A stretch of DNA of 64,000 nucleotides from Mizuhopecten yessoensis (taxonomy: Eukaryota). A program made the position numbers and the translations under genes. The notes beneath the pieces are model-generated. The model had not been told where the DNA came from. It saw nothing but the letters and a program-made list of their open reading frames with translations, and searched no databases. The DNA lies in assembly GCF_002113885.1 (NCBI RefSeq), contig NW_018408726.1:1379362-1443361 (forward strand), written 5' to 3'. Below are positions 3,358-60,742 of the stretch, piece after piece. The stretch's first letter is position 1. Each line of letters opens with the position of its first letter.

Positions 3358-6300
3358 ATGAGAGAAATCGTGCACATTCAAGCTGGTCAGTGTGGTAACC
3401 AAATCGGTGCTAAAGTAAGTCGACATTTTAATTTTCTGTTTATTTTATTTAACGAACTGACGTGTTTATCAAAATATTCAAAAGGAAACTTCTTTTCATG
3501 CATTCGCTCAGAATTAAGAGAAACCGAAAAAAGAACGTACAAAGATAGAACCGTTGATATTGCGCTAATGTTTACAACACTATCGATCTAAGAGCGATGA
3601 TGTCAATTCAGCTCTTCGCGGTGAGGTCATCATTCAATATGCCGCATAACGTCAATCTCGACATTTCAGGAACTGTTTCAGAGATTTCCTCTTGCAATAT
3701 ATTTTTTTTTCTTCTTCAAAATAATTGATAGTTTGAATTATTACCTTTTGTTAATCATATGAAGTGAATTTGCATTTAAAGTTAAGCAACTATGGAAATA
3801 TCAGTGATCTACATTTAAATTGTTTTTTTTGGTTTTTTTCCATTTCTCTACAAAAAATTGATGCAGAATGGTTGTGCTACACATTTACGATATTTCATCT
3901 TAAAGCATTGTCAACTTCACCTATATGTCACTGTATCGGTGAGCACCACCTGTAAGAAATCTGCAGTATTTATATCGTTATAGTTAATAATGTAATTTCT
4001 AAGTTTTGGGAAGCCAATCAACTGCGTGATTTATTGACAAGTGAAAAACATTAGCCTTATATTGACATCTAACCAACAGTTTGTAATGAAATCAAGTCAT
4101 ATCTCATAGTACACTATTTCTGTATCTTTGTCAGTTAGAAAGTCGATTGATAAATATTATTTTTTAACCTAATCCCATTTTTTGTTTAGTTTTTAAGAAT
4201 ATAAACAGTTCCATGTGACATGTAGGCCTAGTCTGTGAATGTGTGCATGGAATGTGTTCTGTGACAGTTTGTATCGATTTCTCTGTGGTTCGTGAGAAAG
4301 AGACATTACATAAAATTTAAATTGTCTGGCTCAGTATCGTTGCAGCTTTTACTCATCGTCGTCATACTGTAGTAAGTCCGTACAGAAATAGTCAGACGCT
4401 GATACTGTAGTCAGTCCCTACAGAAATAGTCAGACGCTGATACTGTAGTCAGTCCCTACAGAAAGAGTCAGACACTGATACTGTAGTCAGTCGGTACAGA
4501 AATAGTCAGACACTGATACTGTAGTCAGTCCTTACAGAAATAATCAGACACTGAAACTCTAGTCAGTCCCTACAGAAATAATCAGACACTGAAACTCTAG
4601 TCAGTCCCTACAGAAATAGTCAGACACTGATACTGTAGTAAGTCCCTACAGAAATAGTCAGACGCTGATACTGTAGTAAGTCCGTACAGAAAGAGTCAGA
4701 CGCTGATACTGTAGTAAGTCCGTACAGAAAGAGTCAGACGCTGATACTGCAGTCAGTCCTTACAGAAATAGTCAGACACTGATACTGTAGTAAGTCCCTA
4801 CAGAAATAATCAGACGCTGATACTGTAGTAAGTCCGTACAGAAATAGTCAGACGCTGATACTGTAGTAAGTCCGTACAGAAATAGTCAGACACTGAAACT
4901 CTAGTCAGTCCCTACAGAAATAATCAGACACTGAAACTCTAGTAAGTCCCTACAGAAATAGTCAGACACTGCTACTGTAGTAAGTCCGTACAGAAAGAGT
5001 CAGACGCTGATACTGTAGTAAGTCCGTACAGAAAGAGTCAGACACTGATACTGTAGTAAGTCCGTACAGAAAGAGTCAGACNNNNNNNNNNNNNNNNNNN
5101 NNNNNNNNNNNNNNNNNNNNNNNNNNNNNNNNNNNNNNNNNNNNNNNNNNNNNNNNNNNNNNNNNNNNNNNNNNNNNNNNNNNNNNNNNNNNNNNNNNNN
5201 NNNNNNNNNNNNNNNNNNNNNNNNNNNNNNNNNNNNNNNNNNNNNNNNNNNNNNNNNNNNNNNNNNNNNNNNNNNNNNNNNNNNNNNNNNNNNNNNNNNN
5301 NNNNNNNNNNNNNNNNNNNNNNNNNNNNNNNNNNNNNNNCTGATACTATAGTCAGTCCCTACAGAAAGAGTCAGACGCTGATACTGTAGTAAGTCCGTAC
5401 AGAATGAGTCAGACACTGATACTGTAGTCAGTCCGTACAGAAATAGTCAGACACTGATACTGTAGTAAGTCCGTACAGAATGAGTCAGACACTGATACTG
5501 TAGTCAGTCCGTACAGAAATAGTCAGACACTGATACTGTAGTCAGTCGGTACAGAAATAGTCAGACACTGAAACTCTTGTCAGTCCTTACAGAAATAATC
5601 AGACGCTGATACTGTAGTCAGTCCGTACAGAAATAGTCAGACGCTGATATTGTAGTCAGTCCTTACAGAAATAGTCAGACACTGAAACTGTAGTCAGTCC
5701 GTACAGAAATAGTCAGACACTGATACTGTAGTCAGTCGGTACAGAAATAGTCAGACACTGAAACTCTAGTAAGTCCGTACAGAAATAATCAGACACTGAT
5801 ACTGTAGTCAGTCCGTACAGAAATAATCAGACGCCGATACTGTAGTCAGTCGGTACAGAAATAGTTAGACACTGAGACTGTAGTCAGTCCGTACAGAAAT
5901 AGTCAGACACTGAAACTGTAGTCAGTCCTTACAGAAACAGTCAGACACTGATACTGCAGTCAGTCCGATCAGAAATAGTCAGACACTGAAACTGTAGTCA
6001 GTCCTTACAGAAATAATCAGACACTGATACTGTAGTCAGTCCGTACAGAAATAGTCAGACACTGATACTGTAGTCAGTCCGTACAGAAATAGTCAGACAC
6101 TGATACTGTAGTCAGTCCGTACAGAAATAGTCAGACACTGATACTGTAGTCAGTCCGTACAGAAATAGTCAGACACTGATACTGTAGTCAGTCCGTACAG
6201 AAATAGTCAGACACTGATACTGTAGTCAGTCCGTACAGAAATAGTCAGACACTGATACTGTAGTCAGTCCGTACAGAAATAGTCAGACACTGATACTGTA

Positions 6301-59800: not shown

Positions 59801-60742
59801 TCCCATTCCGGACCCAGTACCACCACCAAGAGAATGTGTAAGTTGGAATCCCTGAAGACAATCACAGCTTTCTGCTTCCTTTCGTACCACATCAAGAACA
59901 GAGTCTACGAGCTCAGCACCTTCTGTGTAATGTCCCTTAGCCCAGTTGTTTCCAGCTCCACTCTGTCCGAACACAAAGTTGTCGGGTCTGAAGATTTGAC
60001 CAAAAGGACCAGATCTGACAGAGTCCATGGTTCCAGGCTCCAAGTCAACCAATACAGCTCGGGGAACATATTTGCCTCCTGAAAATACAATAGAATTATA
60101 CAAAAAACTGTCAAAATTTTGGGGTTTCGAATTCATTGCTTTAAGGAAATTAATCGCATTTCATTTCCAGTCACCATTTGGTTTTGATCAGGGAGAAGTT
60201 ACAGGTAATCCGAAGTTGAAACATATTGACACCTATTTGATTTTTCACTGAAAGCATATCAGTTAAACGTTATTTAGCCCGGGAGAAATAATGAACCCCT
60301 GAAATAACACTAAGAGTTGTAATTAGCATAGAACTTTTTTTAAATGTAGATAAGATTTTTTTTGATATTATGCAATGATAATTTGCATAATTTAACATAT
60401 GACTTAAAACTTTAAAATCCAATTAAAACCTTCTAGTTGACCTATCTCTCGAACTTTCCCCCAAAAAATATTTCATTTAACAAACATAAAACAGGGTGGA
60501 GTAAATGTCAATTATCAGCAAACTGCGATTAACATCTTACATCAATTTGTACGCTTCCTTATTTTTTTTATATAAAATGTCAATCGCTATTTCCAAGGAA
60601 TAGGTGAGAGTTTCTAAAGAAGCCAAGCTTTACCTGTGGCTTCGTTGAAGTACACGTTGATCCTCTCCAACTGAAGGTCAGAATCTCCGTGGTATGTACC
60701 GGTGGGGTCGATTCCGTGTTCGTCGGAAATAACCTCCCAGAA
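56874..60742 (-). CDS. TUBB: Beta-tubulin (locus 5), 5'-partial, predicted 448 aa; exons 60742-60634, 60078-59723, 57698-56874; exon 1 presumably beyond position 64000
   Basis: Exon sizes and phases match the other loci. Tail [22 protein letters not shown]. No MREI exon seen in 60743-64000. Confidence 0.96.
57990..59270. repeat. Two related 42-bp minisatellites interleaved in locus 5 intron 3
   Basis: ATAATTCCACCCAGCGTGTATGATTTACGTTATATATATATA and ATAATTGTTCAACTCACCGTGTATGACTTATGCTATGTACGT. Confidence 0.92.
59305..59356 (-). ncRNA. Inactivated PLE-type hammerhead / pLTR remnant
   Basis: Minus strand UUUGA-CUGAUGAAGGUGAC..UAUCAUC-AAAACAUCACAC aligns with the 49136-49195 motif; GAAA->AAAA and GUC->AUC. 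Confidence 0.6.

What the first reader, a model, noticed from the sequence alone, without database searches (positions are those of the whole stretch)
3358..60742. Five-locus beta-tubulin cluster with homogenised bodies but distinct tails, pocket residues and promoters
Seen: four tandem + loci and one convergent - locus with identical exon sizes and phases, unalignable introns, four different acidic tails and at least three promoter types (ETS/DRE/E2F TATA-less; X-box+TATA; CCAAT+motif+TATA). Known: C-terminal tails define isotypes and carry glutamylation/glycylation sites, and EGEF plus three acidic residues is the motile-axoneme motif (present in loci 3, 4, 5; EGDF in locus 2). Inference: this is a clustered isotype repertoire partitioned by cell type.
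Basis: partly seen in the sequence, partly recalled or inferred. Interest (0 to 1): 0.7.

Follow-up and report, generated by a model that had tools for sequence, protein, structure and literature searches.

The report
Sixteen-gene beta-tubulin array with patchwork exons
The five genes are the middle of a row of sixteen beta-tubulin genes in an animal genome; one of the five is a broken copy, and the rest likely stay alike because neighbours keep copying pieces from one another, a known process, while the idea that their tails mark different cell types is untested.

Summary
The five loci are real, but they are loci 9-13 of a 16-locus beta-tubulin array spanning 232 kb. Locus 1 is a pseudogene: exon 2 deleted, GTP-loop changes, lost acceptor, frameshift, no tail. 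Loci 1+2 are a duplicate of the gene pair just upstream. Homogenised bodies are supported: synonymous differences are saturated in exon 1 but low in exons 3-4; exon segments disagree in ancestry (PHI P 0.002-0.005); 3' UTRs, tails and promoters are shared in patches. The cell-type reading is weakened: loci 3-5 share one promoter module, of which loci 1-2 carry relics; EGEF plus three acidic residues is in 13 of 15 tailed loci; tails move between promoter types. Locus 3 is transcribed in 4 of 4 RNA runs, locus 4 hardly at all (tissues unknown). Best reading: a birth-and-death array under purifying selection, homogenised by patchy gene conversion, likely diversifying regulation and dose more than protein. 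Tandem tubulin clusters are known; the scan noted a six-gene array in another genome. Locus 4's four colchicine-pocket changes are the most unusual detail.

The parts
3139..3264 (+). Locus 1 (I) promoter: three CCGGAAG, TATCGATA (3224-3231), CCAAT (3236), TTCCGCGAAAA (3254-3264), the last a variant of the array's CCAAT..GCGGAAG module
3358..3414 (+). Locus 1 exon 1, intact (MREIVHIQAG...)
4364..8336 (.). 38-bp satellite in intron 1 of locus 1, with a 258-N gap; the same unit ends contig C3296, which holds the sister copy's exon 1
9420..9425 (+). Junction of the deletion (about 270 bp) that removed exon 2 of locus 1, shown by alignment to sister locus G
9508..9863 (+). Locus 1 exon 3 remnant; 9 amino-acid changes against sister G, including G141D and T143I in the GGGTGSG loop
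10062..10386 (+). Locus 1 exon 4 remnant: acceptor AG lost, 10-nt frameshift deletion, then a 3.7-kb deletion removes the rest of the exon, the tail and the 3' UTR
13681..13694 (+). X-box-like palindrome GATACCATGGCAAC upstream of locus 2 (consensus recalled); also in sister H
13989..18928 (+). Locus 2 (J): intact, 445 aa; exons 13989-14045, 16881-16989, 17477-17832, 18113-18928; divergent exon 2; tail [16 protein letters not shown]
27796..27861 (+). Locus 3 promoter module CCAAT..GCGGATG..TATAAA
27945..33311 (+). Locus 3 (K): intact, 445 aa; exons 27945-28001, 30035-30143, 31609-31964, 32496-33311; N165V, Y200F, M316I; T72P may be a base error; 3' UTR transcribed
38753..38809 (+). Locus 4 promoter module CCAAT..GCGGAAG..TATAAA
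38895..46391 (+). Locus 4 (L): intact, 445 aa; exons 38895-38951, 42827-42935, 44826-45181, 45576-46391; A315V, M316V, V349T, T351I in the colchicine site; near-silent in four RNA runs
56874..60742 (-). Locus 5 (M) exons 2-4 (60742-60634, 60078-59723, 57698-56874), 448 aa; exon 1 and promoter lie beyond the window end; shares 300 bp of 3' UTR (94%) with locus N

Best explanation
This is the middle of a 16-locus tandem array of intron-bearing beta-tubulin genes, including one dead duplicate, whose coding exons are mosaics, likely because of repeated short gene conversions and unequal crossovers between neighbours. Shown: new copies arise by block duplication (G+H gave I+J) and some die (I). Proteins of the living copies are under strong purifying selection. 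Exons 3-4 are far more alike at silent sites than exon 1. 3' UTRs, tails and promoter pieces are shared in patches with sharp edges. Inferred: long exons offer the homology tracts for conversion, while the 57-nt exon 1, introns and most tails escape and drift, the tails partly by slippage in GAG-rich codons. Inferred and untested: the array is kept for dose and regulatory spread (one ancestral CCAAT-GCGGAAG-TATA promoter module plus an upstream RFX-like site in several loci, plausibly for ciliated tissues) more than for a tail code; a few loci (J/H, L, G) are real structural variants.
For: 16 loci over C5399:1,265,977-1,498,112. Block duplication: window 744-18915 aligns to the G-H block in pieces at about 75-92%. 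Silent-codon difference over all 105 pairs of the 15 framed loci: exon 1 704/1557=0.45, exon 2 0.24, exon 3 0.21, exon 4 0.22 and 0.19; H/J against the rest 0.60, 0.47, 0.19, 0.27, 0.19; saturation expected from the array's own codon usage 0.49-0.56; the divergent isotype on C3758 gives 0.46-0.66. PHI-type test P 0.002-0.0045; summed segment likelihood -5566.6 against a permutation null of -5769.9, sd 20.6, best of 60 = -5731.9. Codon-independent sharing: E/F/G 3' UTR 95-97% over 100-137 bp with identical tails, F/H 875 bp at 90%, M/N 300 bp at 94% across opposite strands, C/D 117 bp upstream at 90%. H groups with J in exons 2, 3, 4a but not 4b. dN/dS 0.013-0.064. CCAAT..GCGGAHG in 7 of 17 promoters examined and in only 7 of 1616 200-bp windows of the whole region, a count the promoters themselves can account for; also in G's exon-1 contig. 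RFX-like half site at -400..-270 in 7 of 13 independent promoters against 264 of 2419 background windows, P 0.0002, window chosen after looking.
Against: No genome of a related species was available, so the classic test (paralogs cluster by species at silent sites while flanks follow orthology) was not run; site-specific codon selection could explain part of the low silent divergence in exons 3-4. Single tracts are weak: 45 of 120 pairs pass P<0.05 alone, only 2 reach about P 0.05 after correction. The gene on another scaffold (C1056) shows the same gradient (0.40, 0.53, 0.35, 0.27, 0.20), which fits either ectopic conversion or 3' codon constraint. The segment-likelihood test also responds to rate differences between exons. 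Over the whole 500 bp the RFX-like site is only weakly enriched (P 0.009-0.14 over four patterns) and it was not found in loci 1 and 4. Twelve distinct tails among 15 loci and the pocket quartet of locus 4 leave room for functional specialisation.
Confidence: 0.68

Rival explanations
1. One reading: each locus is a cell-type-specific isotype whose tail and promoter are matched (ciliary versus non-ciliary).
For: 12 distinct tails among 15 loci; J/H and L carry blocks of selected changes. Locus 3's 3' UTR depth per Gb read is 203 in X24 against 5.0-8.7 in X21-X23, and locus 4's exon-1 bin is 0, 0, 0, 0.6. Sea urchin beta-tubulin genes differ by stage (PMC6539552, Table 2 passage).
Against: Tail and promoter are uncoupled: E, F, G share a tail behind different promoters; K, L, M, N, O, P, F share a promoter module with 7 different tails; twins H and J share promoter and introns but differ in tail and 3' UTR; M and N share a recent 3' UTR but differ in tail. 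EGEF+3 acidic is in 13 of 15 loci and in 92 of 187 fetched homologues that have a tail. In mouse ependymal cells cilia showed no isotype preference and composition followed expression level (PMC13389950, passages). The X24 difference may be partly technical (other study, other library selection).
Confidence: 0.22
2. Plain birth-and-death duplication with purifying selection on protein and codons, without appreciable gene conversion; shared UTRs come only from recent duplications and unequal crossovers.
For: A real block duplication and a pseudogene are present; individual conversion tracts are mostly not significant after correction.
Against: E/F/G and M/N share UTR patches of 100-300 bp without sharing most introns or promoters, M and N lie on opposite strands, H/J are saturated in exons 1-2 but not in 3-4, and the PHI-type test is significant.
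Confidence: 0.08
3. The copies are haplotype or assembly artefacts.
For: The assembly is fragmented (82,659 contigs). Locus B loses 87 nt at a single N, G's exon 1 lies on a separate contig, and several single changes (T72P, T237P, T386P, C239W) may be base errors.
Against: Window loci 2-5 differ by dS 0.33-0.56 in exons 3-4 with unrelated introns. The G-H and I-J blocks differ by about 8-15% in their long aligned pieces and carry different deletions. A likely true haplotig (C78574) matches locus N's promoter letter for letter by eye, unlike these copies. Locus 3's own UTR is seen in reads.
Confidence: 0.02

Closest known systems
Same-class tandem tubulin clusters of animals (human TUBB2A/TUBB2B, TUBA1A/B/C; insect clusters) - Findeisen et al. 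2014, PMC4202323 (12 passages read)
   Same: Tandem genes of one tubulin class, opposite-strand pairs, pseudogenes inside clusters.
   Different: The clusters named in the passages have 2-3 genes; this one has 16 over 232 kb. 'Mollus' and 'conversion' do not occur in that paper's main text; its supplements were not read.
Leishmania beta-tubulin paralogs under concerted evolution - Jackson et al. 2006, PMC1533823 (abstract only)
   Same: Coding regions conserved and concerted, perhaps by ectopic conversion; non-coding regions diverge; repertoire serves expression more than structure.
   Different: Kinetoplastid genes; here intron-bearing animal genes with own promoters, homogenisation graded by exon, and diverging tails.
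Sea urchin beta-tubulin family (Paracentrotus lividus, PMC6539552, passages; Alexandraki and Ruderman 1981, title seen in a reference list only, not held)
   Same: Seven near-identical beta-tubulins with different core promoters and stage profiles in a ciliated marine invertebrate.
   Different: Linkage and conversion are not treated in the passages seen; clustering in sea urchins is recalled, not checked.
Neighbouring beta-tubulin genes of the snail Pomacea canaliculata (locus tags C0Q70_19319 and C0Q70_19320)
   Same: Consecutive locus tags, M7, M316 and an [15 protein letters not shown] tail like this array.
   Different: Only two protein records seen, adjacency inferred from the tags; array size and synteny unknown.
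Vertebrate class III/V/VI beta-tubulins with colchicine-site changes (Ala315Thr, Thr351Val, Cys239Ser; PMC2890610 and PMC4882049, passages)
   Same: Locus 4 varies at the same positions 315, 316, 351.
   Different: Locus 4 has V315/V316/T349/I351 and keeps C239; this quartet and T349 were in 0 of 234 fetched homologues that matched the pattern (of 280), a 90%-clustered and therefore coarse sample.

Membership tests
Beta-tubulin | MREI start, GGGTGSG loop, 443-448 aa, acidic tail, high identity to solved beta-tubulins | tested here: met
   Loci 2-5; locus 4 exon 4 matches PDB beta-tubulins at E 1e-179.
Beta-tubulin (locus 1 as a functional gene) | Complete reading frame with intact GTP loop and tail | tested here: not met
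   Exon 2 deleted, G141D/T143I, acceptor lost, frameshift, 3' deletion.
Same-class tandem tubulin cluster | Several genes of one class in a row with no alpha-tubulin between | tested here: met
   16 beta loci; the 40%-identity (alpha-like) matches lie on other contigs; no other long intact gene among ORFs of 170 aa or more between them, only repeats and element fragments by eye.
Concerted evolution by gene conversion | Mosaic ancestry along the gene and sharply bounded shared patches | tested here: met
   PHI-type P 0.002-0.0045; UTR patches; H/J exon gradient.
Concerted evolution by gene conversion | Paralogs closer within species than orthologs between species | not testable with these tools
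   No related animal genome is held.
Birth-and-death family | Recent duplicates and pseudogenes among selected genes | tested here: met
   G+H to I+J duplication, I dead; I against G dN/dS 0.46 in exon 3 (9 non-synonymous, 6 synonymous) against 0.06 for H against J.
Motile-axoneme beta-tubulin | EGEFXXX with X = D or E (PMC2880298, passage) | tested here: met
   Loci 3, 4, 5 and 13 of 15 tailed array loci; not J (EGDF) or B (EGEFEEG). Met, but not discriminating.
Motile-axoneme beta-tubulin | Expression in ciliated or flagellated cells and incorporation into axonemes | not testable with these tools
   Run tissues are coded.
Cell-type-partitioned isotype repertoire | Fixed pairing of promoter type with tail | tested here: not met
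   Tails and UTRs cross promoter types.
Cell-type-partitioned isotype repertoire | Different expression among loci | tested here: inconclusive
   Locus 3 on, locus 4 near zero in 4 runs, measured on different gene parts, tissues unknown; 2 of 16 loci examined.
RFX-regulated ciliary gene | X-box upstream | tested here: inconclusive
   One-mismatch X-box in H, J, and weaker F, L; such matches occur in 21 of 283 random windows; half sites cluster at -400..-270; consensus recalled; binding untested.

The most novel reading that the evidence does not exclude
The array is a combinatorial shuffler: conversion and unequal crossover recombine promoters, exon variants and tail+3' UTR cassettes among 16 genes to make tissue-restricted isotypes, and locus 4 is a restricted isotype with a rebuilt colchicine pocket (V315/V316/T349/I351) that changes microtubule dynamics or sensitivity to dietary antimitotic compounds, in parallel with vertebrate class III.
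Probability: 0.15. Interest if true: 0.68.

Novelty: new member of a known kind. Interest (0 to 1): 0.38.

Why it matters
Tandem tubulin clusters and conversion among tubulin paralogs are known, so the principle is not new. The array is, however, larger than the 2-3-gene animal clusters named in the survey passages read, and it is a clean natural test of the multi-tubulin question: bodies are 95-98% identical while promoters, UTRs and tails are unique enough to map reads locus by locus. It also warns that tubulin gene trees and tubulin reference-gene assays in such animals mix loci. No paper describing this array turned up in ten literature searches (listings only); supplements and subscription journals were not seen.

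Tried and rejected
First gene models were one base off at exon 3 and were corrected. In some searches and 15 locus B was padded with 90 instead of 87 N; the conversion tests were redone, and the AU tests are not used (each segment is bound to prefer its own tree, and the last segment was misaligned). One search stopped at the saturated C3758 row; the rest was run. Idea that exon 1 of locus 1 is an alternative first exon for locus 2: not favoured, since locus 1 has its own remnant exons and a full sister gene; not tested with reads. Idea that exon 2 of locus 1 hides in the N gap: rejected, the deletion junction is in called sequence. Colchicine-pocket enrichment over the array: 6 of 29 pocket against 36 of 401 other positions, P 0.05; 2 of 29 against 19 of 401 for shared changes, P 0.42; window loci 4 of 29 against 22 of 401, P 0.09: not supported as a general trait. 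Protein searches for orthologues of locus 4 and cluster look-ups found none; 90% clustering merges beta-tubulins, so this is no evidence. The exon-2 search for the locus 2 type did not run (36 aa, below the minimum). Among indexed holders no RNA holder on record was listed; no evidence either way. Transcription of loci 1, 2 and 5 and DNA confirmation of the locus 1 lesions in another individual were not obtained. No structure prediction was run, since the fold is known.
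Full report
What is there. The window is G000:C5399:1,379,362-1,443,361 of a 988-Mb animal assembly. From the residues M7 and M316 shared with snail, brachiopod and bryozoan records I infer a lophotrochozoan, probably a mollusc; no call names it. A search with exon 4 of locus 3 and exon-wise tblastn over a 323-kb stretch found 16 beta-tubulin loci, here A-P, between 1,265,977 and 1,498,112, all on + except M. The window holds I, J, K, L and part of M (loci 1-5). Thirteen loci have complete frames with exons of 57, 109, 356 and 810-825 nt; B lacks 87 nt at a single N; G lacks exon 1 on this scaffold; I is broken. 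Further beta-tubulin genes lie elsewhere (C1056, C3758, C4995, C3209, C5399:2.96 Mb).

Locus 1 is a pseudogene, and loci 1+2 are a duplicate. Window 744-18915 aligns piecewise to the G-H block upstream, with long pieces at 87-92%. Against G, locus 1 lost exon 2 by a deletion of about 270 bp (junction 9420-9425) and lost the 3' half of exon 4, tail and UTR by a 3.7-kb deletion (10386/10390). The exon 4 acceptor is gone, a 10-nt deletion shifts the frame, and exon 3 has 9 replacements including G141D and T143I in the GTP loop. G's promoter matches locus 1 up to window 3234 and is then followed by about 10 kb of a 20-bp satellite with a gap; the missing piece with an intact exon 1 lies at the end of contig C3296, which carries the same satellites. 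G is therefore probably complete in coding terms with an interrupted promoter (inferred).

Homogenised bodies. Loci 2-5 are 410-423 of 430 residues identical outside the tail, and dN/dS against the majority codon is 0.013-0.064 for all 15 framed loci. Silent-codon difference over the 105 pairs is 0.45 in exon 1 but 0.24, 0.21, 0.22 and 0.19 in exon 2, exon 3 and the two halves of exon 4; saturation under the array's codon usage would be 0.49-0.56, and the divergent C3758 gene gives 0.46-0.66. H and J are saturated against the others in exons 1-2 (0.60, 0.47) but not in exons 3-4 (0.19-0.27). A PHI-type test on 169 informative silent sites gives P 0.002-0.0045; segment trees fit 203 log units better than codon-permuted segments (sd 21, 60 permutations). 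Single tracts are short and weak: 45 of 120 pairs pass alone, 2 reach about P 0.05 globally (C3758 was left out of these tests, pseudogene I out of all pairwise coding tables). Evidence free of codon selection comes from flanks: E/F/G share tail and 100-137 bp of 3' UTR at 95-97%, F/H 875 bp at 90%, M/N 300 bp at 94% on opposite strands, C/D 117 bp upstream at 90%. Gene conversion and unequal crossover are the likely cause; the cross-species test could not be run.

Tails. There are 12 distinct tails among 15 loci. The axoneme motif EGEFXXX (X = D/E; PMC2880298, passage) is in 13 of 15, in the C1056 gene, and in 92 of 187 fetched homologues with a tail; the mollusc tails tabulated in PMC9048481 mostly carry EGEF too (passage). 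It looks like the default state and does not sort loci. M and N share a recent UTR yet differ in tail by GAG-rich codons, and twins H and J have different tails and UTRs, so tails change fast.

Promoters. CCAAT..GCGGA[ACT]G occurs in F, K, L, M, N, O, P, usually with AATAG[GT]xC upstream and TATAAA near -90, and in G's exon-1 contig. Locus 1's 'E2F' site replaces G's GCGGAAG, its 'DRE' is TATAGATA in G, and locus 2 keeps a relic CCTTT..GCGGAGG (by eye). The three CCGGAAG sites are kept in G and I and are rare elsewhere (10 plus-strand sites in the region, 6 of them these). C, D, E use CCGGTATAAAAG; A and B differ again. It crosses promoter types (B, E, F, H/J, M, N, P) and was not found in loci 1 and 4.

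Pocket residues. The colchicine site is residues 235-240, 246-257, 312-316 and 347-352 (PMC2890610, passage). Over the array the enrichment is marginal. Locus 4 stands out: 4 of its 6 differences from the majority (A315V, M316V, V349T, T351I) lie in the site, at positions where vertebrate class III also differs, and T349 was in none of 234 matched homologues. This is a single locus picked after looking; function is untested.

Expression. RNA reads of four runs from two studies were laid on window 33312-43300. The bin with locus 3's 3' UTR has depth 9.3, 16.2, 10.6 and 336; the bin with locus 4's exon 1 has 0, 0, 0 and 1.0. Reads on locus 4's exon 2 carry other letters (42889 T in 181 of 185 reads in X24) and so likely come from paralogs; no exon 1-2 joint is among the rows shown (15 weaker rows were hidden). 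Thus the loci are not expressed alike, but different gene parts are compared, 3' bias may contribute, tissues are coded, and only 2 of 16 loci were measured.

Verdict. Observation partly confirmed; interpretation partly supported. The best reading (0.68) is a birth-and-death array under purifying selection, homogenised by patchy conversion, with regulatory and dose diversification and a few structural variants. A matched tail-promoter code by cell type (0.22) is not excluded but is contradicted by the free mixing of tails, UTRs and promoters. Known parallels: small tandem clusters in vertebrates and insects (PMC4202323, passages), concerted beta-tubulin paralogs in Leishmania (PMC1533823, abstract), the sea urchin family (PMC6539552, passages). 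The scan noted a six-gene array with similar reading in another genome (unchecked AI note, not support). New member of a known kind; interest 0.38.

Noticed in passing
G000:C5399:1,340,447-1,350,784 and G000:C3296 (L037, L038): Locus G's promoter is cut exactly before its CCAAT box by a long insertion rich in a 20-bp satellite; the unplaced contig C3296 holds the rest with exon 1 and probably belongs in the scaffold gap.
   Followed up: partly
G000:C5399:1,352,047-1,352,862 (locus G exon 4): A block of multi-base codon changes gives A296G K297R N298L C303V A315V M316I, suggesting an old divergent isotype segment inside an otherwise homogenised gene.
   Followed up: no
G000:C5399:2,959,921-2,963,222 and G000:C3209:209,568-212,083: Two divergent beta-tubulin genes appear to lack introns 1 and 2 but keep intron 3 (exon matches abut), an unusual 5' intron loss.
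   Followed up: no
G000:C4995:460,588-471,800: A beta-tubulin gene with extra introns inside the regions that are exons 3 and 4 in the array.
   Followed up: no
G000:C2403, C5315, C3184: Several matches at about 40% identity (alpha-tubulin-like) also lie in clusters, five on C2403 within 75 kb.
   Followed up: no
G000:C1056:858,730-861,408: A beta-tubulin on another scaffold resembles locus A in I7 and promoter layout and is closest to the array in its 3' exon.
   Followed up: partly
window 39456-40021, 34485-34518, 42220-42480: Short dispersed repeats in and around locus 4 attract many partly fitting RNA reads from elsewhere in the genome.
   Followed up: no
G000:C5399:1,484,464-1,486,211 (locus P intron 1): ORF fragments that look like a piggyBac-type transposase remnant (by eye, recalled); locus P also has a GC donor at intron 3.
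   Followed up: no
window 1084-1780, 19960-21127, 21787-23057, 24354-25282, 43362-44153, 55133-56564, 58052-59192: Many unrelated minisatellites fill spacers and introns, which would speed the loss of intron similarity.
   Followed up: no
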